50,634 nt of DNA from a virus (Duplodnaviria; Caudoviricetes): positions 1 to 50,634 of the IMG/VR virus record IMGVR_UViG_3300044490_000254; one strand, written 5' to 3'. Below the pieces are notes generated by a model. That model did no database searches. It had not been told where the DNA came from and saw only the letters and a program-made list of their open reading frames with translations. The position numbers were made by a program, and so were the translations under genes. Position 1 is the stretch's first letter. Each line of letters starts with the position of its first letter. This document shows positions 4,091 to 22,675 of this stretch, in pieces.

Positions 4091-4231
4091 ATGAAGTCAC
4101 GGAAAATCGCTATAATGATTGAGGCTGAGTCTGAAAATTCACTAAATGATCTGCGCAAAGTAGGCTATGTCATATTTTGCCATCCAAGCGGACAATCCGA
4201 GAAGAGCAAGTCGAGGCGCGAATGGAAATGA
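4091..4231 (+). CDS. Small hypothetical protein
   Basis: Strong RBS GAGGAGG before ATG 4091; stop overlaps the gmd ATG. Confidence 0.5.
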   Translation: MKSRKIAIMIEAESENSLNDLRKVGYVIFCHPSGQSEKSKSRREWK

Positions 4232-5208
4232 AGCGCGCGCTGATCACAGGCATCACAGGGCAGGACGGGAGCTACCTCGCCCAATTGCTGATGGAGAAAG
4301 GATATGTGGTCCACGGAATGGTCCGGCAGGCAGCCACAATCGGGTATCCAAGACATCTGATGTGGCGTCTGCGACCTGTTCTGGATCAAATTCAGTTTCA
4401 TTCGGGATCGCTGGAAAGTTTGTCCAGCATGGAGCGTATTGTGCGGCAGGTTCGTCCCGATGAATGCTATCATTTGGCCGCGCAAAGTTTTGTAGGGCCG
4501 TGGATTGAGGATGAGTATTCCATCATGTCGGTTAATACCAAAGGCACTCATCATGTATTATCTGCGATCCGGGAATGGGCACCTGCCTGCAGAGTGTATT
4601 TTGCGGCATCGAGCGAGATGTTCGGCAACGGACGTGAATTGCGCCAGAATGAAGAGTCACCGATGAATCCTATATCGGTGTATGGGATTTCGAAGTTCGC
4701 AGGGTTCCGTTTGGCGCGATATTATCGGGATATCCATGGGATCTACGTTTCGTCCGGCATTTTGTTCAATCACGAAAGCCCTCGCCGCGGAGCGGCGTTC
4801 GTGACGCGCAAGATTACCGACGGGGTCGCGGGGATCAAGGCCGGGATGCGGCGGGATTTGGCGCTGGGGAATCTGGACGTCTGGCGGGATTGGGGCTATG
4901 CTGGCGATTACGTCGAAGCGATGTGGAGGATGCTGCAGCAGGACGTGCCGGACGATTATGTCATCGCCACGGGGATTGCGCATTCCGTGTGGGAATTCGC
5001 CAAAGCGGCGTTCGCGCGGATCGGGCTGGACTGGAAGCAACATGTTCGGCAAGATTCTGCGCTGCTGCGACCATCGGACGTTCGTTGTTCGCGGGGGGAT
5101 TTTAGCAAAGCGCGGAAGAGATTAGGATGGACGCCGACGATATCGTTCGAGGAATTGGTAGGGATGATGGTGGATGCGGATTGCGTTCGGTACGGAGTAA
5201 AGATGTAA
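4228..5208 (+). CDS. gmd: GDP-mannose 4,6-dehydratase
   Basis: MKRALITGITGQDGSYLA, HLAAQSFV, SSEMFG, YGISK, GILFNHESPRRG, FVTRKI, LGNLD..RDWG. Confidence 0.95.
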   Translation: MKRALITGITGQDGSYLAQLLMEKGYVVHGMVRQAATIGYPRHLMWRLRPVLDQIQFHSGSLESLSSMERIVRQVRPDECYHLAAQSFVGPWIEDEYSIMSVNTKGTHHVLSAIREWAPACRVYFAASSEMFGNGRELRQNEESPMNPISVYGISKFAGFRLARYYRDIHGIYVSSGILFNHESPRRGAAFVTRKITDGVAGIKAGMRRDLALGNLDVWRDWGYAGDYVEAMWRMLQQDVPDDYVIATGIAHSVWEFAKAAFARIGLDWKQHVRQDSALLRPSDVRCSRGDFSKARKRLGWTPTISFEELVGMMVDADCVRYGVKM

Positions 5209-6885: not shown

Positions 6886-6930
6886 GAGCCCAGCTGCATC
6901 GGAAGAGATGTGCGGTTGGGCTTTCGTATA
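6886..6930 (+). terminator. Leader hairpin (possible attenuator)
   Basis: GAGCCCAGCTGCATC-GGAAGA-GATGTGCGGTTGGGCTT stem with G-U pairs, followed by TCGTATAT. Confidence 0.4.
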
Positions 6931-6996
6931 TCTGCTCGACTGGAGGGGTCATGCGCACGGCCTTTGTTGCGTCGCTCTGGGGTTGGGGGGGATACG

Positions 6997-8418
6997 GTGG
7001 ATATCAATAAAGTCCCGATGATGTTTCGATGGCTCCGCGCATTCGGATCAAAGACGGTATCTGTCAATCTTGCTTCTTCTGCTTCTCTTACCACGAAAGA
7101 CCTCCTCAATGAAGTCAGCGCCAACCGGCGTCCATTGTTCCAGCGCATGCCTGCTCCCCAGGCGAATCCGGATGACCTCGTCGGGAAGAAGGGGCTGCGG
7201 ATCTATGGAGAAATGCGCCGGGATGATGCGGTGAAGGCTGCGCTCTCGCTGAAGTGGCACGCTGTGCTGTCGACCGGATGGGACGTGGAGCCGGCGTCGA
7301 CGAGTCCTCAGGATGTGCAGATAGCGGACTTCGTGAAGGCAAATTTTGAATTGATGAAGGGCACCTTGGACGAGAACCTGTTCCAGATCATGAGCGCGAT
7401 GGTGTGGGGCTATTCCGTGTCGGAGCTGGTGCTCCAGAAATTGGACAAGGGCGATTTCGCAGGGAAGATCGGGCTGAAGGCCATCAAGACCAGGCTCCCG
7501 CACGATTTCCGGTTTGTGGTGGATGCGCACGACAATTTGGTGGAGGACGGGATCGAGCAGTTCGGGAAGCGGCTGCCTGCCTACAAGTTCGTGGTGTACA
7601 GCTTCAACGGCGACGGCGGGAACCTATACGGCACGTCGGACCTGCGGGCGTGCTATGAGCCGTGGTGGATCAAGTCGAACACCCGCAAGTGGTGGGCGCT
7701 GTTTCTGGACCGGTACAGCGTCCCGTTGGCGGAAGGCACGTATCCGAGGAACGGCGGGATACCGGATTCTGCGATCGGGGATCTCCGGACTATTCTGGAC
7801 CGGTTGCAGGCCGCTACATCCATTGTGCACCCGGACGACATCATGCTGAAGTTCCCGACGACGGGGATCAGCGCGCAAGGGGCATCTATTTTCGAGCGTG
7901 CGATCCAGAATGCGGACATGGCGATTGCGCGAGCGCTGCTGGTGCCGAGCCTGCTGGGGGTCAGTGCGCAGGGCGATACCGGGAGCTTCGGCCAGGCGAA
8001 GAAGCATTTCGATGTGTTCATCCTGATCATCGAGAAGCTGCAGCGGGAGCTGTCCGAGGCCGTGATGGGGGAGCAGATCATCCGGCGCATTGTCGACCTG
8101 AATTACACGGTGGAAGAATATCCCAAGTTTGTCTTCCTGCCGTTCACCGAATCGGACAAGTCGGCGCTGCTGCCGCTGTGGTATGAAGCCGTGTCGAGCG
8201 GATCGGTGAAATCCCGTCCGGAGGATGAGCTGCATATTCGACAGATAACGGAGTTCCCGGAAATCGATCTGGAAGATATTCAAGCTGAGTCGCCGTCGTT
8301 TGGACCGGAGGCCAATGAGCCGGGGACGGCGGAGGCGAAGAAGCCGGGAATGACGGATGCGGATTTGGTGGCTTTGATCGAGCAGACGATGGCAGAAGGA
8401 GTTTCTGCAAATGCTTGA
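6997..8418 (+). CDS. Portal protein (DUF935 / Mu gp29-like)
   Basis: IYGEMRRDDAVKAAL, WGYSVSELV, NLYGTSDLRACY, WALFLDRYSVP and GSFGQAKKH. Start is GTG 6997 or ATG 7018. Confidence 0.9.
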   Translation: MDINKVPMMFRWLRAFGSKTVSVNLASSASLTTKDLLNEVSANRRPLFQRMPAPQANPDDLVGKKGLRIYGEMRRDDAVKAALSLKWHAVLSTGWDVEPASTSPQDVQIADFVKANFELMKGTLDENLFQIMSAMVWGYSVSELVLQKLDKGDFAGKIGLKAIKTRLPHDFRFVVDAHDNLVEDGIEQFGKRLPAYKFVVYSFNGDGGNLYGTSDLRACYEPWWIKSNTRKWWALFLDRYSVPLAEGTYPRNGGIPDSAIGDLRTILDRLQAATSIVHPDDIMLKFPTTGISAQGASIFERAIQNADMAIARALLVPSLLGVSAQGDTGSFGQAKKHFDVFILIIEKLQRELSEAVMGEQIIRRIVDLNYTVEEYPKFVFLPFTESDKSALLPLWYEAVSSGSVKSRPEDELHIRQITEFPEIDLEDIQAESPSFGPEANEPGTAEAKKPGMTDADLVALIEQTMAEGVSANA

Positions 8419-9184
8419 GATGGAATGGGTAGTGTGCAAAACTCCATCGGGCGATGCAGTGTTATGTTTGAAACAAGGGGAGAAACTGCGCATCTATGGT
8501 GGATTCGATCCAAACCAGCCACGGAATGAAGTTGGAGAATGGTCTGGTGAAGGTGGGGCTGGTCCGGCGACTGGCGGGGCTGGTGGTGGTTCAGATCGTG
8601 AAATTGCAAGAACTAGGATGATGCACAAGAGCAGTGAGATTTATAATCACATGTTCGTTAAGCAGGCATCTGTAATCAAGTCAGTGGAAGAAGCGATAGT
8701 AACATACACTTCCGGCGCTTCAAATAAAGCAGTGAGTTATAAGACTATAAATGCCCATCTGCGGAATGGGGGCTCATTTGACGATATGTTTCCATCATTG
8801 CCATCTGTCGGCAGGCAGATGAAGGCGCTGCAGGAAGCCACAAAGCAAGCCATCCATCCTCCGGTGATTGTGTATCGCGCAGTCGACGCGAAGATTGCGC
8901 AGAAGTTTGGAGTGGACAAGGACATTGTCATGAAGGGGTTTGTGTCGACATCGATGTCTCCTGAGATCGCGTCGCATTTTACCGAAATGAAGGGCCGAAC
9001 ATTGCTGGAGATCAAAGCCAAATCCGGTCTAGCGGTGTCAAAATTGAAGGAAACGGATTGGTTTGGTGAGCTCGAGGTGCTCCAGGCGCACGGGACGAAG
9101 TACCGATATGTGGGGAAAAAGAAGGCGAAGATTGGCGAAAGAGGAGATCAATCTTTGCCTGTCATTATGCTGGAGGAGGTATAG
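8411..9184 (+). CDS. ADP-ribosyltransferase (VIP2/C3-like, R-S-E class) with N-terminal FDPNQPR motif
   Basis: YT..YKTINAHLR, VIVYRAV, GFVSTS and GELEVL...GTKY. Confidence 0.85.
   Translation: MLEMEWVVCKTPSGDAVLCLKQGEKLRIYGGFDPNQPRNEVGEWSGEGGAGPATGGAGGGSDREIARTRMMHKSSEIYNHMFVKQASVIKSVEEAIVTYTSGASNKAVSYKTINAHLRNGGSFDDMFPSLPSVGRQMKALQEATKQAIHPPVIVYRAVDAKIAQKFGVDKDIVMKGFVSTSMSPEIASHFTEMKGRTLLEIKAKSGLAVSKLKETDWFGELEVLQAHGTKYRYVGKKKAKIGERGDQSLPVIMLEEV
8504..8545 (+). repeat. FDPNQPR-x3-G-x-W peptide motif, copy 1
   Basis: Encodes FDPNQPRNEVGEWS. Confidence 0.9.
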
Positions 9185-9185
9185 T

Positions 9186-9317
9186 ATGGCGGAGAAGATT
9201 GAGGGAAAGCCACGCCCCAAGAAATCGGATGTTCGGCCCGAGCGGTTCTACGAGGACGATCCGAAGGCGTTCGAGTTTGTGCCTCGTAAGGGTGCGGAGA
9301 AGAAAGACAAGAAATGA
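9186..9317 (+). CDS. 43-aa charged protein downstream of the ART
   Basis: GGAGGAGG RBS; MAEKIEGKPRPKKSDVRPERFYEDDPKAFEFVPRKGAEKKDKK. Confidence 0.65.
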   Translation: MAEKIEGKPRPKKSDVRPERFYEDDPKAFEFVPRKGAEKKDKK

Positions 9318-9553
9318 CGCCCCATTCGTATTGGATCGTGGGCCGGTCGCTGCGGCAGGCGGATGACCTGGTGATGTGGCAGAAGATCGGGACCTTTCTG
9401 TCCCATGAGGACGCCGTGGCGTTCGGCAAATACGAGAAGGCGGATATCCTGCTGGAGGTTCCTATAGGTCAGTATGTGGCGGCTGTTGGGGACATCTGCG
9501 TGTCGGATCGAAATGTATGGTCCTCTCGGCTGAAGGAAAGGCCATGCCGTTAG
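9314..9553 (+). CDS. Hypothetical protein
   Basis: ATGA overlap with the upstream gene. Confidence 0.6.
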   Translation: MTPHSYWIVGRSLRQADDLVMWQKIGTFLSHEDAVAFGKYEKADILLEVPIGQYVAAVGDICVSDRNVWSSRLKERPCR

Positions 9554-12500
9554 CGACGAATCAGATGTGGCTGAAGACCTACGGGCGACTTCCGTGGTGG
9601 CGGGAGCCGGCTCCATCTTCATTGGTGAAGGTCTATTTCGACCCGAATCAACCAAGGGATGAGATAGGACAATGGATCGATACCGGTGGCGGCGGTTCAA
9701 AATCATTGCCGGGTGTTGAATCGAAGGGATCTCCTGATAAGAGCGCAATCAGAAGTTGGCAGATGCGGGGGAATCCTAAAAACATAGATGGGTATTATGT
9801 CGGGGGTTTAGGGAATTTGCTTGGATTGAAAGGGAAGTCTGCGAACGAGTTTGATAATAAGGTCGCCGACCTTTGGGCAAAACACGATGTGGCGAAGGAT
9901 ACGGCGGATATGGATGCCCGTCGAACTCTGACTAAGGAATTGGCCGATTCCCTGGCCACTTTCGAATCGAAATATGCTGCGACGCTGTCTGGAATTCGAG
10001 GAATTCGACTTGAGATGGACGAATTTCATCGTTTAAATGCTGATACGCATAGAGGCCGAGAGCCGCTTCTTGTGTCTAGTCATTGGGTTTTGAAGGCGTT
10101 GAGCGGAGGCGATCTCAGCCGAGCGAGGGAGCGGTATTCCTCGCATGATGAGGCTCATTTCTATCAATCCGGATTGTCTCGCCAGCCGACCCAGTATGAG
10201 CGCAAGGTGAATTTCGTCGCTATCGGGTCGGAACTGGACAATCTGGAGGCGCAGGGTCGGGAACGGGTCCGCGCACTATTGACTGGAGCGAAGGACAAGC
10301 TGCTGTCCCTCGTGTCCCGAAAGCTGGCGGACAATTCATTGACGACGAGGTTTGTGAATGACCTGGAGCTGCGTGGGCTAGGGCAATTGATTCCTACATT
10401 GAGAGAGATTTTGCGGAGCGGATTCCAGCAGGGACAGCAGAGCGCCAAAGCCGAGGTGAAGTCTGCTTGGACTATCGAGAAGCGGATGTCGCAAGAGAAC
10501 GGGAATACGACAATCAAGGATGCGATTCGCACATTGGTAGCGAAGCATCCTGAATTGACGAAAGACCAGATCCTGGGCGCGCTCAAAAAGCTCCGAGATA
10601 AGAAGCCGGAATTGTTTACTGCCAGAAAGTCCGATGTCCATGACTACCAGGTCCGCCACGTCTTGACAGGATTGCCGCCGGAGAAAGCGCTGGAGTTCTT
10701 TGAGTCCAAGGCGACATTATGGGGCGCGGAACTGCGCGATCCGATCCTTCGAGACGCGAAGAGCGTGCTGTACAATGTGATCAAGACTGGTCAGTCGCTG
10801 CGCGAGGCGCAGGCGGAACTGGAGCGGGTGTTTCTGCCGTATCTGGGCGACCCGGACCAGATGGTCGACGAGGAGATGCTGACGCCGTACCGCCTGGAGA
10901 CGACGATCCGCACCAATGTCATCGAGGCGTTGAACGAGGGGCGCAAGGCGATGTTCCAGCCTGAGGTGGACAGCGGATTCATCATCGCCTACCAGTACAG
11001 CGCGATCATGGACGCCAGGACCACGCGGGTGTGCCGCTATCTTGACAGGAAAATCCTCAGGCCGAACAGCCCTGAGTTGGACAGCTTGAGTCCGCCGAAT
11101 CATTATAATTGCTTTGTTGATGGGCAAACGCGTATCTATACGGTACATGGATGGAAGCCGATACGGGCGCTGGAAGTTGGGGATTTGGTGCTGACGCATG
11201 CCGGAAGGTTTCAGCCTGTGACATGTGTACATCACAAGCAGCAGCCTCAGCAATATGCTGGTGATGTTATTAAGTTGCATGTGTCCCGTCCAAACGCTTC
11301 GGGAAAAGGCAAGCCTCCTCTTATTCATACGATGACGGTGACCCCAGATCATCCTGTTGCGGTTGATGCAGGCTGGGTTCCTGCGGCACAGGTCAAAGAA
11401 GGGGACCGTGTTCGTTGTTTGGGATCGGCATGTCTTCGATGCGGAACAATAACTCCTTGGTTGACGGCGCAGCAGCCGAAGTATTGCAGTCGAAACTGCC
11501 ATATACAAGTCGTGTCACGAAAGGGTTGGCTGGTGCCTGGACGCCGGGAATACATGTCCAAGATCATTTCAGCTCAAATGCATCGTGAATATGCAAATGG
11601 GACTCGCGGCAGGAAAAAGATCACTGAAAAGGCGAATGCAGCAACTCGTGCCTTATATGCAAATGGAAAGGGAAAGGGAATGTTTCAGCGTCCTGAAGTG
11701 CAGGAAAAGATGAAAGACGCTAAACAAAAGAGTGCGAAATGGCGGCATGCGATCACTGAGGGGCGGCGGGGTGACAAGAATCCTTTGAGTAAATATCCGT
11801 TGTTTGCGCAACAAATAGGAAAACGATTACAAGCCTTTGTGGCGGCGCATCCTGAAAGGCATGGAAATCGGGTGATGGGCCGTGCGGTGATGGCTGGACA
11901 TGAAGGCTACCTATCAAAAGGACAGCGCAAGCTCTATGCTCTTGCACAATCTCTTTCTTATGGAGTGGTGGAACTGGAATATCCTATCAAAACCGAGCAG
12001 GGGTTGTTCTTTGTGGATGTGGCATTGCCGAGCCTTCAACTGGGACTCGAATTCGATGGGTCTTATTGGCATCAGGATGTTGAGAAAGATCTGCGTCGGG
12101 ATGCTTTGCTGGCACAGGAAGGTTGGAAGGTCATTCGGTATCGAGATGCTGTCCCATCGTTGTCTGCGCTTCGGGAGGATGTTGCGCGACTTGCAGCGAA
12201 TCATGCCCAGCAATATGTGTGGGCAACAACGACAGTAGAAAAGGTTGAGCGATGGGCATTGCGGAAGCCTCGGCAACTCTATAATATCTCTGTGTTGGAG
12301 GACGAGAGTTATGTTGCAAAAGGATTTGTTGTCCATAACTGTCGCAGCATCCTGACTCCCATCTTTCGCACTGAAGGGCCGGTGATGTTCGCTTCTGCGG
12401 AGGAGATCGCCCAAGGAATCAATCTGAAAGGCAAAGGATTCTGTGATGAGCAAATTCGCCATGACTACTTCGACCCGAACCAGCCACGAGATAAGATTGG

Positions 12501-13377
12501 ACGATGGTCCGGTGAAGGAGGCGCGCTAACATCCGGCGGGACAGGAAAGGATCGGGAGTTCCGGGATGCCAATGGTAATCTGGTGACGGATCAGGCAACG
12601 CTGAGTCGGATTGCCGGACTGCGAATCCCGCCGATGTGGACCGATGTGGAGGTCAGCGCAAATCCCAAATCCGAGTTGCAGGCGGTCGGGAAGGACGCGA
12701 AAGGCCGGACTCAGTATTTGTACAGCGCGGAAGCGACAGGCAGGAATGCCGCAGCCAAATTCGAGCGTGTCGCGAAGTTGGCGAAAGTGTATCCGAAACT
12801 GGTGGCCGGTGTGGGAAAGGACATCGCCAGGGGAAAAGAGGAAGCGATCGTGGTGGGCTTGATGCTGGGCTCCGCGATGCGCGTTGGTTCGGCTGGGGAA
12901 ACGCTGGCGAATGTGAAAGCCTTCGGCGCATCGACATTGGAGGCCCGTCATCTTTCGGTGTCCGGGAACGTGGTGCATTACGATTTCATCGGCAAGAAGG
13001 GAGTGGCGTGGAAAGGACAGATCGATGATCCCCAATTGGCTGGTGTCATTAAGCCGTTGCTGAAGGGCAAATCCGGGTCTGACCGGGTATTCTCGACATC
13101 GGCGGAGAATGTGAACGGCTATCTTAAAACGTATGGGCAATTTTCTGCGAAGGATCTGCGCACGTTGATCGGCACGTCTCTGGCGCAGCGCGAATTGAAG
13201 AAGTCGGCGATGCCAACCACCAAGACCGACGCGAAGAAACTGGTGGCGTCGGTGGCGAAAACTGTGTCTGGGTTTCTCAGGAACACCGCAGCGGTGGCGA
13301 AGAGTGCCTATATCAATCCCATCGTGTGGGCTCCGATGGAAGCGCGATTTGGATTTGCGGTATTGAAGACAGGATAG
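9544..13377 (+). CDS. MuF (SPP1 gp7-like) head morphogenesis protein with intein and C-terminal type IB DNA topoisomerase
   Basis: MuF: RLETTIRTN, YQYSAIMDARTTRVC, PPNHYN/CRS. TopIB: IPPMWTDV, LQAVGKDAKGRTQYLY, MRVG, FIGKKG, SAKDLRT, LRNT..VAKSAYI. Confidence 0.9.
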   Translation: MPLATNQMWLKTYGRLPWWREPAPSSLVKVYFDPNQPRDEIGQWIDTGGGGSKSLPGVESKGSPDKSAIRSWQMRGNPKNIDGYYVGGLGNLLGLKGKSANEFDNKVADLWAKHDVAKDTADMDARRTLTKELADSLATFESKYAATLSGIRGIRLEMDEFHRLNADTHRGREPLLVSSHWVLKALSGGDLSRARERYSSHDEAHFYQSGLSRQPTQYERKVNFVAIGSELDNLEAQGRERVRALLTGAKDKLLSLVSRKLADNSLTTRFVNDLELRGLGQLIPTLREILRSGFQQGQQSAKAEVKSAWTIEKRMSQENGNTTIKDAIRTLVAKHPELTKDQILGALKKLRDKKPELFTARKSDVHDYQVRHVLTGLPPEKALEFFESKATLWGAELRDPILRDAKSVLYNVIKTGQSLREAQAELERVFLPYLGDPDQMVDEEMLTPYRLETTIRTNVIEALNEGRKAMFQPEVDSGFIIAYQYSAIMDARTTRVCRYLDRKILRPNSPELDSLSPPNHYNCFVDGQTRIYTVHGWKPIRALEVGDLVLTHAGRFQPVTCVHHKQQPQQYAGDVIKLHVSRPNASGKGKPPLIHTMTVTPDHPVAVDAGWVPAAQVKEGDRVRCLGSACLRCGTITPWLTAQQPKYCSRNCHIQVVSRKGWLVPGRREYMSKIISAQMHREYANGTRGRKKITEKANAATRALYANGKGKGMFQRPEVQEKMKDAKQKSAKWRHAITEGRRGDKNPLSKYPLFAQQIGKRLQAFVAAHPERHGNRVMGRAVMAGHEGYLSKGQRKLYALAQSLSYGVVELEYPIKTEQGLFFVDVALPSLQLGLEFDGSYWHQDVEKDLRRDALLAQEGWKVIRYRDAVPSLSALREDVARLAANHAQQYVWATTTVEKVERWALRKPRQLYNISVLEDESYVAKGFVVHNCRSILTPIFRTEGPVMFASAEEIAQGINLKGKGFCDEQIRHDYFDPNQPRDKIGRWSGEGGALTSGGTGKDREFRDANGNLVTDQATLSRIAGLRIPPMWTDVEVSANPKSELQAVGKDAKGRTQYLYSAEATGRNAAAKFERVAKLAKVYPKLVAGVGKDIARGKEEAIVVGLMLGSAMRVGSAGETLANVKAFGASTLEARHLSVSGNVVHYDFIGKKGVAWKGQIDDPQLAGVIKPLLKGKSGSDRVFSTSAENVNGYLKTYGQFSAKDLRTLIGTSLAQRELKKSAMPTTKTDAKKLVASVAKTVSGFLRNTAAVAKSAYINPIVWAPMEARFGFAVLKTG
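9637..9675 (+). repeat. FDPNQPR-x3-G-x-W peptide motif, copy 2
   Basis: Encodes FDPNQPRDEIGQW. Confidence 0.9.
11110..12339 (+). mobile_element. Intein (410 aa) with Vsr/DUF559-type endonuclease
   Basis: Starts CFVDGQTRI, block B TVTPDHP, ends YNISV..ESYVAKGFVVHN followed by Cys. Splits the MuF PPNHYN|CRS motif. Endonuclease motifs VDVALP..GLEFDGSYWH..DLRRD..GWKVIR. Confidence 0.92.
12469..12510 (+). repeat. FDPNQPR-x3-G-x-W peptide motif, copy 3
   Basis: Encodes FDPNQPRDKIGRWS; followed by GEGGA as in copy 1. Confidence 0.9.
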
Positions 13378-13381
13378 CGCA

Positions 13382-13543
13382 ATGCAATTGCTGATATCGA
13401 TCGATGAGATGGAAATGCTGCAGGAGATGCTGTCCGCTCAGCATTGGACGGACGTGGTCCCGCCGACTGAGGGGTTGGATGATCCGGACGACGATGAGGA
13501 AGGCTCCGTGCGCTTGGCGTTGGATGAGCAGGAAGAGGACTAG
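13382..13543 (+). CDS. 53-aa very acidic protein (not in the ORF track)
   Basis: MQLLISIDEMEMLQEMLSAQHWTDVVPPTEGLDDPDDDEEGSVRLALDEQEED fills the gap exactly; its stop abuts the next ATG. Confidence 0.7.
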   Translation: MQLLISIDEMEMLQEMLSAQHWTDVVPPTEGLDDPDDDEEGSVRLALDEQEED

Positions 13544-14341
13544 ATGTCGAATCTCGTAGACATCGGCATCAGCGTGCGGGAGTCGGAGAATAACCCGTGG
13601 CTGGACCGGCTGATGAAGTCCCTGGAGGCCAGGTCCGCCGGGATGGAGGCCGACGTCTACATTGAGAAGGGCAAGGAGCTGACCAAGGTTGAGAAGCGCA
13701 TCCGGCTCTTTCGGCGCTCGCAGGCGCGGTATCTGGTGCTCATGGAGGACGATACGCAGGTGCTGCATGACGGATGGCTGGTCAATCTGGTGTGCCGCAT
13801 GTCGGCATTTCCGAGCATCGCGGTGATGAATCCGGCGGAGACCCGGCATCCTGCGGAGGATGTGCCGGAGAGCGCTCTTACGGATTTGACTCAGGAGGTC
13901 GCGTATTGCTGCGGGTTCTGCATGGTGGTGGACCGTGAGAGCGGCGTCGAGCCGGATGTCCGGGCGCAGACCCTTGAGGACCTGTGGCTGAGCCTGACGG
14001 CGCGGGCGAAGGGTTGGCGCTGCGCCAGGACGGAGGCGGCGATCGTCCGGCACACGAAGACGCCGTGGGGCAGCGATGACCTCAAGCCCGACGAGCAGTC
14101 CGACCGGAGTCGGTGGGGGGAGGGGTCTGATTATTACAATACGCTCAAGCATGAGCGCAAGCGGAAGCACGAGGCGAAACTGATGATCGAGGTGTTTGGG
14201 GATTTGGCCCGGATGACGTTGCCGAAGGAATTGATACAGGATCAGCGGATTGATCCCTTGTACGCAGGACCAGAGCTTGATGTGGTGGAGAAGACAGTCG
14301 TTGGAGATGCACAGTTGGCGTTGAGCGGAATGGGAGGATAG
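13544..14341 (+). CDS. GT-A fold (GT2-like) glycosyltransferase
   Basis: YLVLMEDDTQV (DxD-like), CGFCMVV, EDLWLSL..RAKGW, IVRH. Confidence 0.75.
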   Translation: MSNLVDIGISVRESENNPWLDRLMKSLEARSAGMEADVYIEKGKELTKVEKRIRLFRRSQARYLVLMEDDTQVLHDGWLVNLVCRMSAFPSIAVMNPAETRHPAEDVPESALTDLTQEVAYCCGFCMVVDRESGVEPDVRAQTLEDLWLSLTARAKGWRCARTEAAIVRHTKTPWGSDDLKPDEQSDRSRWGEGSDYYNTLKHERKRKHEAKLMIEVFGDLARMTLPKELIQDQRIDPLYAGPELDVVEKTVVGDAQLALSGMGG

Positions 14342-14345
14342 TCTG

Positions 14346-14534
14346 ATGTCGGTGAGTCCGGGAACGGTTCATCAAAAATGCGGCGGTCGATTTTATCGAA
14401 CCATGATTAACGGGAACCCTGCTGTCCGCTGTGGGGGCTGCGGGTTCACGAAATATGCGGGTACCAGCGTGGATCGAGGAGTGCGTGTGCATAATCCATG
14501 GGAACAGACCGAGAAAGAGGCGCAGCGCGGATGA
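14346..14534 (+). CDS. Small Zn-ribbon protein
   Basis: GGAGG RBS; HQKC...CGGC. Confidence 0.6.
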   Translation: MSVSPGTVHQKCGGRFYRTMINGNPAVRCGGCGFTKYAGTSVDRGVRVHNPWEQTEKEAQRG

Positions 14535-14690
14535 TGTCGGCGACACGAGCGGGTCAGAGTTCTCTTCTTCTCTGCCTCCAGCCCTACGTGCCTGTCGGAC
14601 AAGGCCACGGGTCCTGGTCGTGTGTCCGCGCCGACATGATGAATAGTAAAATGCTGGTGTCCTATGTGGCAAGGTGGAGGGGTGGTTTGT

Positions 14691-16343
14691 ATGAGTGAGA
14701 CGTTCGTGTTGAACGGCGTTCCGATCTTTTCGACAGGGCGGTGGAATAATGACGAGTATACCGAGGCGGACCTGGACCATATGATTGCGGCATATAACCA
14801 GGTCGGGTTCAAGCCGCCGATCAAACTGGGGCATGATCCGAGTCAGCCGCTGGCGAAGAGCGATGGGATGCCGGCTATCGGATGGGTGACGAACCTCCGG
14901 CGCGTTGGGAAGCAGCTCTACGCCGATTTGCAGAATCTGCCGAAGAAAGTCTACGAGGCTATTAAGCGGAAAAACTACGATCGTGTGTCCGCCGAGGTCT
15001 ATTGGGACTATAATGAGGGCTCAGGTAAGGTGTATCCTCGCGTGCTCAAGGCCCTGTCGCTGCTTGGAGCGGAGATCCCGGCGGTGACGAGTCTTGCGGC
15101 GTTGGAGGGGTTGTATGATGCGTCTGGGCATGCATTCAAGCGATATGATTTGTTTTTTCCATCTGAACAAGTGCCTATATCACCCATGATGCAAGGGGAG
15201 GAGAAGAAGAAGGACCGCTCGTTGGTGGATTACCGACGAGGCGGTGAGGATCTGCATAGGGAGAAGCGGGAGAGTTATTGCGGGAGTTGCAAATTCTTCT
15301 GCGGGATGTTTGATCCAGATGGTAAGCAAATTTCGATATCTTGTTGCGCATTGGTGTTGGGCGATGTCGCGTCTAATATGTTATGCGATCTGCATGAGTA
15401 TGCCGAGCCGTTTGCCGTAGCGAATATGTCTATGGATCAAAAGGTCTACATGATCGAAAAGCGAGGCAAGAAATGGGTGCTGGTCTCGAAGACCACGGGC
15501 GAGGTGCTTGGCGAACATGAGACCGAAGGGGACGCAATGGCGCAGGAGCGCGCCATCCAGGCGGGTAAATCCAAGAAGAAGGAGTCCATGATGATGGCGG
15601 AACAACAATCGGTAGAAGAAACCGATCCTGGCGAAGCTGCCGGTGGGAGCGAGGAAGATACAATGAGTGTGGAACAGGATGCGAAGATTGCGGAATTGAC
15701 GGCGAAACTGTCCGCACAGGAAGCGCAGAATGCGACATTACAAGGGCAGATAATGGAACTCTCTGACAAAGTGGCCGAGTTCAGCGCGAAGTTGCCGGCA
15801 GCGGAGGCCAGGGCGGCTGAGCTGGAGGCGGAGAAAGCAGAACTCGCTGAACAGAAGCGGAAGGCCGACAAGGAAGCCTGGTTGTCTGCGCAGACCACGG
15901 AGGGCAATTTGAAGATCCTGCCAGTGGAGTTGCCAATCGTGGAGCATGTGTACGATCAATTGGAATCTGGCGGGTTGAAGGTGTATACGACTGCCGATGG
16001 CACAGAGATTGACACGTTATCGGCGTTTAAATCTCTATTCGAGTCACGTAAGCCTGGTACCATGCTGTTCACGGAGCTTTCTCAGGGGCGCGGGACGGAG
16101 ACGGCTGGTGAGCCTGACGCTGGGAAGACGGGGATAATGAGTATTAGCGATGCTCGATTGGAGGCCACCAGGCGGGCCAAGGAATACATTGCGCAGAAGC
16201 CTGGGGCAACATTCAAAGAGGCCCTGTCTCATGTGTACAGCGCCGATCCTGATTTGAAGTCCAAGGCCGCTGGGGTAACTCCGCAGGGAGAAGCGAAAGC
16301 GGAAGCTGGTCAAGATCGGATGGTATCCCTGTTCAGGAAATAG
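14691..16343 (+). CDS. Mu-like prohead protease fused to scaffold
   Basis: PIKLGHD, PAIGWV, YDRVSAEV, LSLLGAEIPAV, then Cys-rich and coiled-coil regions; upstream of the capsid genes. Confidence 0.85.
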   Translation: MSETFVLNGVPIFSTGRWNNDEYTEADLDHMIAAYNQVGFKPPIKLGHDPSQPLAKSDGMPAIGWVTNLRRVGKQLYADLQNLPKKVYEAIKRKNYDRVSAEVYWDYNEGSGKVYPRVLKALSLLGAEIPAVTSLAALEGLYDASGHAFKRYDLFFPSEQVPISPMMQGEEKKKDRSLVDYRRGGEDLHREKRESYCGSCKFFCGMFDPDGKQISISCCALVLGDVASNMLCDLHEYAEPFAVANMSMDQKVYMIEKRGKKWVLVSKTTGEVLGEHETEGDAMAQERAIQAGKSKKKESMMMAEQQSVEETDPGEAAGGSEEDTMSVEQDAKIAELTAKLSAQEAQNATLQGQIMELSDKVAEFSAKLPAAEARAAELEAEKAELAEQKRKADKEAWLSAQTTEGNLKILPVELPIVEHVYDQLESGGLKVYTTADGTEIDTLSAFKSLFESRKPGTMLFTELSQGRGTETAGEPDAGKTGIMSISDARLEATRRAKEYIAQKPGATFKEALSHVYSADPDLKSKAAGVTPQGEAKAEAGQDRMVSLFRK

Positions 16344-16489: not shown

Positions 16490-16876
16490 ATGGCGGAATC
16501 CATAGCAGCGACAGGCGGTGCAATTGAGTTCACTGCCGTCAGTGAATGGGATGCCTCCGGCGCTCAATATCGGGGTGTTCGGTTCAGCACGACAGTAGAC
16601 AACAACGTGCGGGTGGCTTCTGTTACTGGGGTGGCGATTGTCGGGGTCCTGCAGAACAAGCCCACTTCCGGTCGAGCGGCCCGTGTTAGAACGCATGGGG
16701 TGACGAAGGCTGTAGCAGGAGCGGCGATTACCCGTGGAGATCGCGTGGATTGCGATGCTCAGGGGTATTTCCGCACAGCGGTCGGGAGCAACTATGCAGG
16801 ATATGCAAGAGAGACCGTGGTCGCATCGGGGACGTTCACGATGCTGTTGAATCCGCAGTATGCTGGTGCCGCCTAA
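16490..16876 (+). CDS. Capsid decoration/cement protein (DUF2190-like)
   Basis: IVGVLQNKP, GVTKAVAGAAITRGDRV; lies between scaffold and major capsid genes. Confidence 0.8.
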   Translation: MAESIAATGGAIEFTAVSEWDASGAQYRGVRFSTTVDNNVRVASVTGVAIVGVLQNKPTSGRAARVRTHGVTKAVAGAAITRGDRVDCDAQGYFRTAVGSNYAGYARETVVASGTFTMLLNPQYAGAA

Positions 16877-16902
16877 TAGCGGCAGAGAGGAGTAGCCACA
16901 TC

Positions 16903-17904
16903 ATGGGTGATCCACGAATGGCCGCTATCTCCGCCGAGCGGCATTATGCAGCGGCGGACACTGATTGGCATATCGATGCCGCTTTGTCTGAGATGTCGAT
17001 TCAGTTCAACATGGATCCCGGCATGTATATCGGGCCGAGCATTCTGCCTGTCGTCAACGTGGACAAGCAGAGTGACCGGTATCTGATCTGGGACAAGGAT
17101 TACTGGTTCCGGATTCCCCAGACCCGCCGTGCTCCGGCGACCAGGGCAAATCGGGTAGAGACCTCCGTGAGTAGTGCGGCTTATTATGCGCATAACTATT
17201 CGCTGGAGGAGCCGATCCCGTTTGAGGATTTGACGAATGCGGATGCGGCGCTGGCGATTGAGGAAGGGACTGCGCGTCATGTGATGCAGTTGCTCATGTT
17301 GGATCAGGAGAATCGGATTGCGACGCTGTTGACCACGGCGGCCAACGTCGGTTCTGGGAATGCACTGACTGGCACGGCGCAGTGGTCTGATCGTGCGAAC
17401 AGCGATCCTGTATCGGATGTTACAACGGGTCGCCTTTGGATTCTGAAAGAGACTGGTCAGAAGCCGAATACGTTGGTCAATGGGCAAGAAGTCCACGACG
17501 CGCTTCTGCTCCATCCGGATGTCATTGATCGGGTGAAGTATACGCAGCGCGCGACCAATGCGACGCTTGAGGCCGCGCTGTCTGATATCTTCGGGGTGGC
17601 GCGGTATCTGGTGGGCAGTGCGCCCAAGCAGAATGCAGCAGAAGGGTTGCCGACATCGGCGTCCTCGATGACCTTTATCTGGGGCAAGAACTGCTCTTTG
17701 TTCTATGCCGCGACGGCTCCTGGCCGGAACATCCCGAGCGGGGTGTATGCCTTCCGATGGCGACCGGCTGGGTTTACGGATTTCATCGTCGAGACCAAGG
17801 ATGACGATGACATCAAGGCTCGGGTGAAGCGTGTGAATTATTTCCAGGATGAGCGGATCACTGCGCAGCAGCTGACGTATTTGTTGTCCACAGTGGTTGC
17901 GTAG
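16903..17904 (+). CDS. Major capsid protein (HK97 fold, lambda E-like group)
   Basis: RBS AGAGGAG; IDAALSEMSI, ILPVVNVDKQSDRY, QWSD..SDPVSD, GQKPNTLV; 333 aa; position in head module. Confidence 0.88.
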   Translation: MGDPRMAAISAERHYAAADTDWHIDAALSEMSIQFNMDPGMYIGPSILPVVNVDKQSDRYLIWDKDYWFRIPQTRRAPATRANRVETSVSSAAYYAHNYSLEEPIPFEDLTNADAALAIEEGTARHVMQLLMLDQENRIATLLTTAANVGSGNALTGTAQWSDRANSDPVSDVTTGRLWILKETGQKPNTLVNGQEVHDALLLHPDVIDRVKYTQRATNATLEAALSDIFGVARYLVGSAPKQNAAEGLPTSASSMTFIWGKNCSLFYAATAPGRNIPSGVYAFRWRPAGFTDFIVETKDDDDIKARVKRVNYFQDERITAQQLTYLLSTVVA

Positions 17905-20414: not shown

Positions 20415-21097
20415 GAGCGATTGCAGGATATGTGGCCTTCGATCTGGATGGATGCCTGTGGGATTCCGATCGACTCCATTTCGACGCGGTGAACATGGCG
20501 CTGTCCCCATATCAGCAACGGATCACTGAAGAGGAGCATCGAACGATCTTCAAAGGGCTTCCAACGAAGCGCAAGCTGGCGATGCTGACTGAGATGGGCC
20601 GGTTACCGCAGTGGGCCCATGCCGATGTGGAGCGGTTTAAGCGGGAAGCCACGCTGATCGCCATTGAAAATACGCAGCCTCGGTCGGAAGTGTCCGCGCT
20701 TTTGATAGCGCTCTGCCAGGTGAATTGGCGGGTGTGCTGCTGCTCGAATTCTATTCTGGACACCGTGCAGATGGTGCTATTGAAGATGGGGATCCTCAAG
20801 TACATGGACTTTGTCCTCAGCAATGAGGATGTCGCGCGAGCCAAGCCCTCTCCGGAAATCTATCAGAAGGCTGCGCGGATCTGGGGCATCCAGCCACAAG
20901 AGATAGTGGTCGTTGAGGATGGTGAGGCCGGGAAGCGGTCGGCGCTGGATGCGGGATGCACTTTGATTGAGGTGTCTGGTCCTCATGACGTTGAGCCGTG
21001 GCTGATCCACAAGATACTGGCTGTTGGACGATGGGACATTCGCAGTCAAGACAAAAAAGCCAGAGAATCTACAGTTGGGAGCGCGATAACTGTATGA
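20411..21097 (+). CDS. HAD-family phosphatase
   Basis: FDLDGCL, CSNS, KPSPEIY, VVEDG. Confidence 0.92.
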   Translation: MRAIAGYVAFDLDGCLWDSDRLHFDAVNMALSPYQQRITEEEHRTIFKGLPTKRKLAMLTEMGRLPQWAHADVERFKREATLIAIENTQPRSEVSALLIALCQVNWRVCCCSNSILDTVQMVLLKMGILKYMDFVLSNEDVARAKPSPEIYQKAARIWGIQPQEIVVVEDGEAGKRSALDAGCTLIEVSGPHDVEPWLIHKILAVGRWDIRSQDKKARESTVGSAITV

Positions 21098-21885
21098 CCA
21101 ATGAGAAGGAGGTGCCCGTAGTGGACGCGATGCCGCATATCATCATTCCGATGGCGGGGGAAGGCAAGCGGTTCAAAGAAGCCGGATACCAGGGACCAAA
21201 ACCGTTGATTCAGGTCGGCGGGCGGCGTCTGTTGGAATGGGCGTTAGATGCGATTCCGAAACCTTGGCGACGCGCAGTCATTCCGGTCATCCATACCGGA
21301 CAAGCTGAGTTGTGTGATGTGTTTGTGGATATTGAGCCTTATTTCAATCGAATGTTTGGAACAGGAAAGCCCTGTCTACTGACAGGCCCGACGTCCGGTG
21401 CTGCGTGCTCGGTTTTGGCTGCGGCAGTTGGATTACCTTCCGATGCCCCTGTGATTGTGATGAATGCAGACCAATGGATCGACATTGACCTGGAAGCGGT
21501 CCACAAAACGGCAATAGCGGAGCAATGGGACGGGTTCGTTCTGACGTTCGAGGGGTCTGGCCCTCAATGGAGCTATGCAATCACTGACGGCACCGATTTT
21601 GTGGTGCAGATAGTCGAGAAAAAGGAGGTGAGTCCATATCCGACCTGCGGGTTGTACTGGTTCCGGCGCGCAGGGGATTTGGTGAAGGCGATCTGCTCAA
21701 TGGTGTACAAAGAGGATCGAACGAATGGGGAATTTTATCTGGCTCCGAGCATGAATCACCTGGAGCGTCATCGTCGCAATGTGCGGATTGTCCCTGTGAA
21801 GGAATTCCATGGGTTGGGGACGCCGGAGCAGGTGAGGGAATTCGAGGCACTGCTGAATGCCGGATGGAAGCCGAAACATGATTGA
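21094..21885 (+). CDS. Sugar-phosphate nucleotidyltransferase
   Basis: IIIPMAGEGKRF..GY..PKPLI, NADQ, EKK, NGEFYLAP, LGTPE. Confidence 0.9.
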   Translation: MTNEKEVPVVDAMPHIIIPMAGEGKRFKEAGYQGPKPLIQVGGRRLLEWALDAIPKPWRRAVIPVIHTGQAELCDVFVDIEPYFNRMFGTGKPCLLTGPTSGAACSVLAAAVGLPSDAPVIVMNADQWIDIDLEAVHKTAIAEQWDGFVLTFEGSGPQWSYAITDGTDFVVQIVEKKEVSPYPTCGLYWFRRAGDLVKAICSMVYKEDRTNGEFYLAPSMNHLERHRRNVRIVPVKEFHGLGTPEQVREFEALLNAGWKPKHD

Positions 21886-22675
21886 TGTGATCATTCCCAC
21901 ACGCAATGCGCCGTCGGTGCTATCAATGATGCTGGCGCATTATTGGGCGAACGCGCACGACGATCGGCTCGTGTCCTCTGTCACGCTGCTGGATAACTGC
22001 TCGGCTGCGGAAGGCATGGAGGATGTTTTCGCGGATGCGCTCAGACGAGGGGCCAAAGTCATTCGGCACGAGCGAAACATCGGGGTCTGGGCATCCGTCA
22101 ATCGAGGGGTGGTCCTCAGTCGCGCGGACAAGATGCTGGTGTTGACCTCCGATATTTTGTTGGCTCCTGATGCGCTATCGTGGTTGGATGCCGTACAGGA
22201 CGATTCAGGATGCGCATTCCTTGGGCCGGTCGTTGTGAGCGATCAGATCGAATATGCATGGAAGCTCTATGAACATCCCTTGCCCGCTGAGCGAGTGAAT
22301 ACCGCCCATTACAATGGCGCATGTTGGCTGATGACGCGGCAATGCATCGATAAGGTAGGGTATTTTGATCCTCGATTTTACATATGCTTCGGGGACGTGG
22401 ACTATACCCAGCGGGTGGTAGATGCGGGATTGGCCTACGGGGTGACGGACGCGGTGCGGTGTTTGCATTTGGACAAGTGCTCTCGCAGGGCAGACCATAC
22501 TGCGAGCCAAGACACGGAGGTTGAGATTCGGGATTGGAGCTGCTTCGCCGAAAAGTGGCAAGCCCGATCAGATGTGATGGAGAAGCATCCGTGCCCCAAC
22601 AGGATCGTGTATAACATGTTGAAAGAGCGATATTGGAATAACAGTATTCAAGAAACCATGGAGGTGTCCGCGTGA
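21878..22675 (+). CDS. GT2 glycosyltransferase
   Basis: IDVIIPTRN, LLDNCS, NIGVWASVNRG, GACWLM..IDKVGYFD, DVDY. Confidence 0.9.
   Translation: MIDVIIPTRNAPSVLSMMLAHYWANAHDDRLVSSVTLLDNCSAAEGMEDVFADALRRGAKVIRHERNIGVWASVNRGVVLSRADKMLVLTSDILLAPDALSWLDAVQDDSGCAFLGPVVVSDQIEYAWKLYEHPLPAERVNTAHYNGACWLMTRQCIDKVGYFDPRFYICFGDVDYTQRVVDAGLAYGVTDAVRCLHLDKCSRRADHTASQDTEVEIRDWSCFAEKWQARSDVMEKHPCPNRIVYNMLKERYWNNSIQETMEVSA

What the first reader, a model, noticed from the sequence alone, without database searches (positions are those of the whole stretch)
9544..13377. MuF head protein fused to a complete type IB topoisomerase
Seen: after the MuF domain and intein the ORF continues without a stop into a ~275-aa TopIB. 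All five catalytic positions are recognisable: R (MRVG), K (GKKG), R (KDLRT), N (LRNT) and Tyr (SAYI). Established: MuF/SPP1 gp7 proteins are minor capsid proteins associated with the portal and DNA, and some carry C-terminal toxin domains. I do not know of a described TopIB cargo. Inference: the virion packages a topoisomerase, either to relieve torsion during packaging or ejection, to relax the incoming genome, or to act as a DNA-nicking effector in the host.
Basis: partly seen in the sequence, partly recalled or inferred. Interest (0 to 1): 0.9.

Follow-up and report, generated by a model that had tools for sequence, protein, structure and literature searches.

The report
Phage head protein carrying topoisomerase IB
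An uncultured lake phage joins its head protein MuF to a complete DNA-relaxing enzyme (type IB topoisomerase) behind a likely cut site of its own head protease and before a tiny acidic partner gene, so the enzyme is probably loaded into the virus particle and likely delivered with the DNA, a habit reported for poxviruses.

Summary
Observation confirmed. ORF 9544-13377 (1277 aa) is open and lies unbroken on contigs of two runs; a third run bridges the junction. It holds MuF, split by a 410-aa intein, then a bacterial-type topoisomerase IB with all six active-site residues (PDB match E 3.5e-32; model pLDDT 95.7). An intein-free relative carries the same fusion.

TopIB is an optional cassette: 4 of 15 close MuF relatives carry it, and three syntenic phages lack both it and the 53-aa acidic ORF behind it. 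In 48 of 67 related viral loci TopIB is fused to or beside head genes. A short tag precedes it. The residue before that tag tracks the phage's protease family (Asp, Lys or Tyr), which points to a cut during head maturation.

Most likely MuF carries TopIB into the prohead, the protease frees it, the acidic peptide restrains it, and it acts on entry. Packaging, cutting, binding and activity are all unmeasured. A general packaging-torsion role is weakened because close relatives lack the enzyme. My paper searches found no description; this scan noted the same cargo on at least eight other genomes.

The parts
9544..13377 (+). MuF polyprotein, 1277 aa (about 867 aa after predicted intein splicing): leader, tag, cargo 1, MuF backbone with intein, tag, TopIB
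9544..9636 (+). Leader conserved in the MuF clade, ending in a Tyr (probable protease site, inferred)
9637..9675 (+). Tag copy 1 (F-D-P-x-Q-P-R-D-x-x-G-x-W)
9676..10164 (+). Cargo 1: about 160 aa of no known family, in a slot that relatives fill with other domains or leave empty
   Evidence: no hit in Pfam, PHROGs or ESM Atlas; slot comparison
10165..11109 (+). MuF backbone, N-extein (Pfam Phage_Mu_F at 10765-11109)
11110..12339 (+). Intein, 410 aa, Cys...His-Asn followed by Cys, with a DUF559 endonuclease-like domain at 12001-12147
   Evidence: same intein at the same site in TopIB-less P0176; absent from P0002
12340..12468 (+). MuF C-extein, ending at Tyr984 (12466-12468), the predicted prohead-protease cut
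12469..12507 (+). Tag copy 2, predicted new N-terminus of a released 302-aa, 32-kDa, pI 10 protein
12550..13374 (+). Type IB topoisomerase: N domain 12559-12696, catalytic core 12736-13302; R 12880, K 12994, K 13150, R 13159, N 13282, Tyr 13309
13382..13543 (+). Acidic 53-aa ORF (18 Asp/Glu, 1 Arg, pI about 4), gained and lost with TopIB; probable inhibitor or chaperone (inferred)
8411..9184 (+). ADP-ribosyltransferase cargo gene with the same tag (8504-8542) two residues after a Tyr; relative L081 has a different tagged cargo fused to the portal in this slot
6910..8418 (+). Portal protein (Portal_Mu, phrog_113)
14664..16343 (+). Head maturation protease-scaffold (phrog_976); the protease domain ends at Lys-Arg-Tyr (Tyr at 15144-15146)
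16750..17904 (+). Major capsid protein (phrog_1005); Arg-His-Tyr just before the mature-domain match (Tyr at 16945-16947)

Best explanation
The gene encodes one polyprotein in which MuF is joined to a complete type IB topoisomerase; MuF likely carries the enzyme into the prohead, the head protease likely cuts it free after Tyr984, the acidic peptide next door likely keeps it quiet in the producing cell, and the freed enzyme probably enters the next cell with the DNA and relaxes the incoming phage genome. Shown: the fusion, the intact active site, the fold, the modular tag-plus-cargo build, joint gain and loss with the acidic ORF, and covariation of the pre-tag residue with protease family. Inferred: packaging (about 0.85), cutting (about 0.75), inhibition by the peptide (about 0.6), ejection and action on phage DNA (about 0.55). 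The benefit would be easier first transcription, as reported for the vaccinia enzyme, or a relaxed genome that is a poorer target for supercoil-assisted defences.
For: Fusion, residues, fold. Independent MuF-TopIB fusions: P0002 (no intein, 64% identical over the region), P0029, P0030, P0011. Head context: of 67 non-redundant viral loci, 23 are portal-fused, 6 MuF-fused, 19 have a head gene nearby and 19 were not placed (tally). Proteins that carry this TopIB also carry Acb1, InPase, Tad3, Kinase-PolyVal, NUDIX, Zeta-toxin or LPD1 domains; Iyer 2017 (PMC5512222, passages) reads 2H, InPase and Zeta-like domains in such proteins as probably packaged and injected. Tag: 75 raw matches on the coding strand and 0 on the other; in frame within 133 aa upstream of TopIB in 41 of 67 loci. 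Cut site: Asp within the last three residues in 13 of 15 tags from 13 DUF2213 loci, Lys in 6 of 6 tags from 4 S78-type loci, Tyr in 7 of 7 tags from 2 phrog_976-type loci; by eye each protease domain ends in the same residue; same-locus tag pairs share the residue in 37 of 44 cases against a shuffled mean of 21.8 (0 of 5000 shuffles). In the MuF clade 15 of 15 distinct tags have Tyr within four residues. Partner: type A within 450 nt in 42 of 67 loci, type B by eye in 19 more; the two types follow the deepest well-supported split of the TopIB tree; both genes are absent from L083, L086 and L087. Precedent: T4 Alt and internal proteins are in the head and cut by the prohead protease (PMC9026906, passages and section 2.6); vaccinia topoisomerase works mainly in early transcription (PMC12188299, passage).
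Against: No virion, proteomic, expression or activity data. No virion RNA polymerase was seen among the window proteins scanned (about 31 kb of the 82-kb contig is outside the window), so the poxvirus logic does not transfer directly, and a bacterial host has its own relaxing enzymes (established knowledge). The residue classes were chosen after seeing the data; tags within one phage can be recent duplicates; the Tyr class rests on two loci with a protease in view; 2 of 15 DUF2213 tags lack Asp. The strict tag is missing upstream of TopIB in 26 of 67 loci. The window's acidic ORF scored no better than shuffles on the type-A profile (129 of 500) and the first type-B profile (54 of 500) and only modestly on a richer one (7 of 500). 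An enzyme-plus-small-gene layout fits a toxin-immunity pair equally well.
Confidence: 0.45

Rival explanations
1. The enzyme is packaged and ejected as above but is aimed at the host chromosome: it would strip negative supercoils or leave covalent nicks, shutting down host transcription, and the acidic ORF would be its immunity protein, as in MuF polymorphic toxins.
For: C-terminal enzyme on MuF followed by a small ORF is the layout of 89.4% of MuF toxins (PMC5576092, passage). It shares slots with ADP-ribosyltransferases, PemK-like and Zeta-toxin domains. The acidic ORF is gained and lost with it. P. aeruginosa TopIB was toxic under typical expression conditions (PMC2666729, passage).
Against: All religation residues are kept in 53-54 of 54 relatives, so nothing suggests a nick-only poison. 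MuF is present in only 1-2 copies per SPP1 capsid (PMC5576092), little against a whole chromosome with active gyrase (inference). The clade gave only 11 hits among 185,579 prokaryote genomes, all on metagenome-derived contigs (one pattern), unlike prophage-borne MuF toxins.
Confidence: 0.2
2. The enzyme works inside the head, relieving twist during packaging or ejection, and need not leave the capsid.
For: 23 of 67 loci fuse it to the portal's C-terminal side, where DNA enters. In natural TopIB-partner fusions a Lys or Asp of the cut-site kind lies between enzyme and peptide by eye, so maturation could remove the brake inside the head.
Against: It is optional: 4 of 15 close MuF relatives have it fused and L083, L086, L087 lack it at this locus. 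It carries the same tag as cargoes with no plausible job inside a capsid. The predicted cut would untether it from the portal vertex.
Confidence: 0.2
3. The enzyme is not a virion cargo. It rides the strong late operon and relaxes replicating or transcribed phage DNA in the producing cell.
For: Stand-alone versions exist in the same clade (P0027, P0028), 21 of 67 loci have under 100 residues before TopIB, and some jumbo phages encode a TopIB listed among DNA-handling genes (PMC7824862, passage).
Against: Release at a prohead-protease site implies presence in the prohead. Many short forms still carry a leader plus tag. Repeated fusion to several unrelated portal families and to MuF (scattered on the tree) is unexplained by operon hitch-hiking.
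Confidence: 0.12
4. The fusion is an assembly or gene-calling artefact, or the TopIB is a dead remnant.
For: Only contigs, not raw reads, could be laid, and two of the runs may be the source.
Against: Run X8 bridges the junction; four other proteins have MuF and TopIB in one chain; all active-site residues are present.
Confidence: 0.02

Closest known systems
Bacterial type IB topoisomerase (D. radiodurans TopIB, PDB 2f4q/3m4a; P. aeruginosa TopIB, PMC2666729)
   Same: Two-domain build (PF21338 + PF01028), fold, and the Arg-Lys-Lys-Arg-Asn-Tyr active site; about 32-33% identity in the structural alignment.
   Different: About 275 aa, sits at the end of a head polyprotein behind a tag and probable cut site, and has a dedicated acidic neighbour; activity not measured.
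Poxvirus topoisomerase IB (vaccinia, variola; PDB 2h7f)
   Same: Same fold (TM 0.79). Vaccinia encapsidates it and uses it mainly in early transcription (PMC12188299 passage and two reference titles).
   Different: Eukaryotic virus with its own virion transcription machinery (recalled); free protein, His instead of Asn at the fifth position, no MuF carrier or acidic partner known to me.
MuF polymorphic toxins (Jamet 2017, PMC5576092) and MuF- or portal-fused effectors and polyvalent proteins (Iyer 2017, PMC5512222)
   Same: MuF gene just downstream of the portal, variable enzymatic cargo, small ORF behind it; relatives combine TopIB with InPase, 2H/Acb1, Kinase-PolyVal, LPD1.
   Different: TopIB is not among the cargoes: no hit in 6 searched supplement files of Jamet and only a reference title in Iyer's main text (supplements unreadable). 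Toxicity, immunity and a temperate lifestyle are not shown here.
Phage T4 Alt and internal proteins IPI-III with the capsid targeting sequence (PMC9026906)
   Same: Enzymes loaded into the prohead and trimmed by the prohead protease.
   Different: T4 cuts after Glu and removes a short N-terminal targeting peptide. Here the carrier is MuF, the predicted cut is after Tyr, and a conserved tag would remain on the cargo's new N-terminus.
Stand-alone TopIB of jumbo phages (phiRSL1, PaBG, Motura; PMC7824862)
   Same: Phage-encoded TopIB fold.
   Different: Only 20-27% identical to this domain; not described there as head cargo.

Membership tests
Type IB topoisomerase, bacterial/poxviral | Catalytic core PF01028 above the curated cut-off | tested here: met
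   74.6 bits against 23.7
Type IB topoisomerase, bacterial/poxviral | N-terminal clamp domain PF21338 with the Gln-x-x-Tyr DNA-contact strand | tested here: met
   52.8 bits against 27; Gln 49 of 54 and Tyr 53 of 54
Type IB topoisomerase, bacterial/poxviral | Arg, Lys, Lys, Arg, His/Asn and the Tyr nucleophile (set as listed in PMC2666729) | tested here: met
   R1122, K1160, K1212, R1215, N1256, Y1265; aligned to D. radiodurans TopIB; conserved in 53-54 of 54
Type IB topoisomerase, bacterial/poxviral | TopIB fold rather than tyrosine recombinase or telomere resolvase | tested here: met
   All listed PDB matches with E up to 0.001 are TopIB; recombinases start at E 0.018
Type IB topoisomerase, bacterial/poxviral | ATP-independent relaxation through a 3'-phosphotyrosine | not testable with these tools
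   needs an enzyme assay
MuF / SPP1 gp7 minor head protein | PF04233 domain | tested here: met
   44.7 bits against 29.6; TIGR01641 37.1 bits, just under 39.65, with the intein splitting the domain
MuF / SPP1 gp7 minor head protein | Gene between portal and protease/capsid genes | tested here: met
   portal 6910-8418, protease 14664-16343, capsid 16750-17904
MuF / SPP1 gp7 minor head protein | Binds the portal and is present in virions | not testable with these tools
   shown for SPP1 gp7 (PMC5576092 passage), not for this protein
MuF polymorphic toxin | Variable C-terminal domain on a conserved MuF | tested here: met
   4 of 15 close relatives end in TopIB; others end in a different extension or nothing
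MuF polymorphic toxin | Small ORF directly downstream | tested here: met
   53-aa ORF 4 nt after the stop; lost with TopIB in 3 of 3 syntenic relatives spanning the junction
MuF polymorphic toxin | C-terminal domain is toxic and the small ORF neutralises it | not testable with these tools
   no assay possible; no complex prediction was obtained
MuF polymorphic toxin | Encoded by a temperate phage or prophage | tested here: inconclusive
   no integrase among the window proteins scanned, one weak excisionase-like HTH hit; part of the genome is outside the window; clade rare in prokaryote genomes
Intein (Hint superfamily) | Hint N- and C-terminal splicing regions, Cys start, His-Asn end, Cys at +1, removable without harming the host protein | tested here: met
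   flanks join to match intein-free P0002
Prohead-protease-processed internal cargo (T4 Alt/IP type) | Cut sites of the phage's own protease at cargo boundaries | tested here: inconclusive
   pre-tag residue covaries with protease family, but classes were chosen after seeing the data and no cut was observed
Prohead-protease-processed internal cargo (T4 Alt/IP type) | Presence in virions and injection with the DNA | not testable with these tools
   no virion data

The most novel reading that the evidence does not exclude
Many uncultured tailed phages carry a portable three-part cassette: a protease-cut tag, a type IB topoisomerase and a dedicated acidic inhibitor. They load the enzyme into the head on whatever carrier is at hand (portal, MuF or a short leader) and inject it to set the supercoiling of the entering genome. 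That would be a virion-delivered DNA-topology effector in bacteria, possibly a counter-defence against systems that need negatively supercoiled targets, with a natural peptide inhibitor of TopIB and a readable cut-site code (Asp, Lys or Tyr by protease family).
Probability: 0.35. Interest if true: 0.85.

Novelty: new variant of a known kind. Interest (0 to 1): 0.66.

Why it matters
Phage heads are known to carry ADP-ribosyltransferases, nucleases and anti-defence enzymes. My searches found no described topoisomerase among them. If true, phages would control DNA topology in the first minutes of infection, as poxviruses are reported to do. The acidic partner would be a candidate natural inhibitor of type IB topoisomerases. 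The tag-plus-cut-site rule would let cargo boundaries be predicted in many uncultured phages. The 302-aa predicted product and the 53-aa peptide can both be tested in vitro without culturing the phage.

Tried and rejected
A natural single-chain TopIB-partner fusion (P0071, 20-row alignment) folded with the partner at pLDDT 59-67 as a continued helix and no contact read-out: no verdict.

Single-sequence locus search with the window's TopIB found nothing in viral contigs; an alignment query did. Annotated phages: 5 of 50,697 records matched, all at most 30% identical; their gene context was not examined. Expression: no RNA holder listed. Cargo 1 and the acidic ORF: no hit in PHROGs or the ESM Atlas; cargo 1 shares only the tag with the ADP-ribosyltransferase gene. 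Promoter and terminator scans of 8300-14800 were at chance level (4 vs 3.7; 6 vs 5.0).

The first tag test used a pattern that missed the window's tag type and gave 38 of 2000 shuffles. double-counted two window tags. One search is the corrected test. The careful tree did not finish; only the quick tree is used and the one-clade test gave no result. The 835 representatives at E below 1e-30 were not sorted into phage and cellular forms, so I do not give them as a phage count.

Rejected: tyrosine recombinase or telomere resolvase identity; frameshift or chimera; the intein as the means of releasing TopIB, since it lies inside MuF, is absent from P0002 and is present in TopIB-less P0176.


Full report
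Verdict. The fusion is real and the topoisomerase looks intact. It is best read as an optional, probably protease-released head cargo that travels with a small acidic partner. What it does for the phage is inferred, not shown.

The sequence. One ORF runs 9544-13377 without a stop, between portal and protease, cement and capsid genes of a tailed phage. Numbering from the upstream ATG at 9517, Pfam places MuF at 417-532, the TopIB N domain at 1015-1060 and the catalytic core at 1074-1262, all above cut-off. The intein spans 532-941 and interrupts MuF's own C-terminal motif; its flanks join to match the intein-free relative P0002. The TopIB aligns to D. radiodurans TopIB at E 3.5e-32. The residue set listed for vaccinia and P. 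aeruginosa TopIB (PMC2666729, passages) is complete, with Asn at the His position as in the D. radiodurans alignment, and is kept in 53-54 of 54 aligned relatives. The model has pLDDT 95.7 and matches only TopIB structures at E below 0.001. Of 10 listed runs, all lake-water metagenomes, I laid 4 as contigs. Two hold the whole region in one 82-kb contig but may be the source, one not flagged as a source bridges 10818-12799, and one is patchy.

How widespread. Among proteins of 707-2251 aa, 25 carry this TopIB. They join it to MuF, three portal families, InPase, Acb1, Tad3, Kinase-PolyVal, LPD1 and others. In IMG/VR 153 stretches matched; the best 80 were kept and reduce to 67 at 90% identity. 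Of these, 23 fuse TopIB to a portal and 6 to MuF (one below Pfam's cut-off, one with MuF on the C-terminal side). Another 19 have a portal, MuF, protease, capsid, cement or scaffold gene nearby, and 19 were not placed, with only nearest neighbours scanned (hand tally). On a quick tree of 78 domains, portal fusions are no more clustered than shuffled labels (23 changes against 22.6) and MuF fusions need 6 changes, so the carrier has changed many times. A one-pattern scan of 185,579 prokaryote genomes gave 11 hits, all on metagenome-derived contigs.

It is a cassette. The MuF backbone exists as a bare 369-373-aa protein and in versions with inserted cargo. Of 15 proteins at least 50% identical over the MuF core, 4 carry TopIB. 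Some of the other 11 come from short contigs and could have TopIB as a separate gene; stand-alone forms of this clade exist. In L083, L086 and L087 the MuF stop is followed directly by the gene that follows the acidic ORF in the window, and no TopIB was found in any of the 12 loci checked. TopIB and the acidic ORF are therefore gained or lost together, and heads of this kind can be encoded without them at this locus.

The tag and the probable cut. A 13-residue motif starts each cargo in the window: the ADP-ribosyltransferase gene, cargo 1 and TopIB. It occurs 75 times on coding strands and never on the opposite strand across 67 loci and the window, and lies within 133 aa upstream of TopIB in 41 of 67. 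The residue before it follows the protease family of the same locus: Asp in 13 of 15 tags with DUF2213, Lys in 6 of 6 with S78-type proteases, Tyr in 7 of 7 with the phrog_976 type. By eye each protease domain ends in that same residue. Same-locus pairs share the residue in 37 of 44 cases, against 21.8 on average and never as many in 5000 shuffles. That the HK97 protease, of the S78 type, cuts after Lys is recalled and comes from no call; that DUF2213 is a protease is inferred from its position. In the window, basic-x-Tyr also stands before the MuF core, at the end of the protease domain and near the capsid N-terminus, and relative L081 keeps Tyr at these places. Caveats: classes were chosen after seeing the data, tags in one phage may be duplicates, and the Tyr class has two loci. 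A cut after Tyr984 would free a 302-aa, pI 10 protein. T4 Alt and internal proteins are the precedent (PMC9026906, passages and section 2.6).

The acidic partner. I took this lead from earlier scan notes and tested it. A type-A peptide lies within 450 nt downstream in 42 of 67 loci, using a profile built from those loci, and three more copies are displaced. A type-B peptide was picked by eye in 19 others. A 99% SH-aLRT branch holds all type-A loci, and none of the 21 loci outside it has type A. The window lies outside. Its 53-aa ORF is clearly orthologous to that of L001 (0 of 1000 shuffles) and aligns by eye with type B, but profile support is modest: 54 of 500 shuffles on the first profile, 7 of 500 on a richer one. 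At least 14 other proteins have the type-B peptide fused behind TopIB. An acidic peptide (pI 4) tied to a basic DNA clamp (pI 10) suggests a DNA-mimic brake. That is inference; binding was not modelled.

How it most likely works. MuF binds the portal in SPP1 at 1-2 copies per capsid (PMC5576092, passage), so the polyprotein would enter the prohead. The protease would cut at the Tyr sites, and the tagged cargoes would leave with the DNA. The peptide would protect the producing cell's DNA during late expression. On entry the enzyme would relax the phage genome. Vaccinia gives the parallel (PMC12188299, passage and reference titles). A defence-evasion benefit is possible, since negative supercoiling enhances CRISPR R-loop formation (PMC6409811, start of abstract only), but nothing here tests it. 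I give this chain 0.45, a host-directed toxin with immunity 0.2, work inside the head 0.2, a non-virion late enzyme 0.12 and artefact 0.02.

What is in print. Searches for MuF with topoisomerase IB (0 papers), MuF/topoisomerase/polymorphic toxin (20 of 104 listed), TopIB/portal/virion (20 of 6,236 listed, none with 'TopIB'), the tag (20 of 3,346, none with the term), polyvalent/head/protease (4 of 4), type IB topoisomerase with bacteriophage (20 of 51) and topoisomerase IB/phage/virion (11 of 12) showed no description of this cargo; these were listings with abstract starts. Iyer 2017 (PMC5512222, passages) has 'topoisomerase' only in a reference title; its supplements could not be read and could list such architectures. 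Jamet 2017 has no hit in 6 searched supplement files, with one image file unsearched. PMC9503650 (passages) covers MuF and portal fusions without topoisomerases. PMC7824862 (passages) notes TopIB in some jumbo phages. Subscription journals are mostly outside the library. This scan has noted TopIB head cargo on eight other genomes and protease-site tags on others; there was nothing for this genome. Those notes are unchecked and are not counted as support.

Score. A new cargo type, with its own partner, for a known kind of system. The anatomy is firm, the mechanism is inferred, and the key steps can be tested in vitro. Interest 0.66.

Noticed in passing
window 8411-9184: Stand-alone ADP-ribosyltransferase gene with a short leader, Tyr and the same tag; relative L081 has another tagged cargo fused to the portal in this slot.
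   Followed up: partly
window about 9189-9317: A small basic ORF of about 43 codons follows the ADP-ribosyltransferase gene (seen as the tail of ORF 9063-9317); it could be that enzyme's partner gene.
   Followed up: no
window 9676-10164: Tagged cargo of about 160 aa with no hit in Pfam, PHROGs or the ESM Atlas; P0002 has an ADP-ribosyltransferase-like stretch (by eye) in the same slot.
   Followed up: partly
window 11110-12339: Intein with a DUF559 endonuclease-like domain and a Cys-rich stretch; the same intein sits in P0176, and P0029 has another intein at a nearby MuF site. The portal of L081 carries two intein-like inserts.
   Followed up: partly
window 13544-14341: Gene of no Pfam, PHROG or NCBIfam family, conserved directly after MuF in L081, L083, L086 and L087; looks glycosyltransferase-like by eye.
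   Followed up: no
window 20998-27330 and 4177-5208: Sugar-handling genes among the virion genes: nucleotidyltransferase, GT2, a 1552-aa methyltransferase-glycosyltransferase fusion, and a GDP-mannose dehydratase; possible virion glycosylation.
   Followed up: no
window 15447-15590 (protease ORF, residues about 262-309): Small module matching phrog_3684 starts right after a Lys-Val-Tyr site inside the protease-scaffold protein; L081 has the same module after Arg-Arg-Tyr.
   Followed up: no
L026, L047, L063 downstream of TopIB: The type-A acidic partner lies inverted or displaced (two copies in L047), suggesting invertible or rearranged segments next to the cassette.
   Followed up: no
L017, L050, L073, L075: The acidic partner is fused to the next protein (MuF, DUF2213 or a ferritin-like domain), so in those phages it may itself enter the head.
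   Followed up: partly
L007 3900-5000; P0021: Other tagged proteins beside TopIB include a metallopeptidase-like domain (ATLF Pfam hit) and a CCA-adding-enzyme-like plus Tad3 polyprotein.
   Followed up: no
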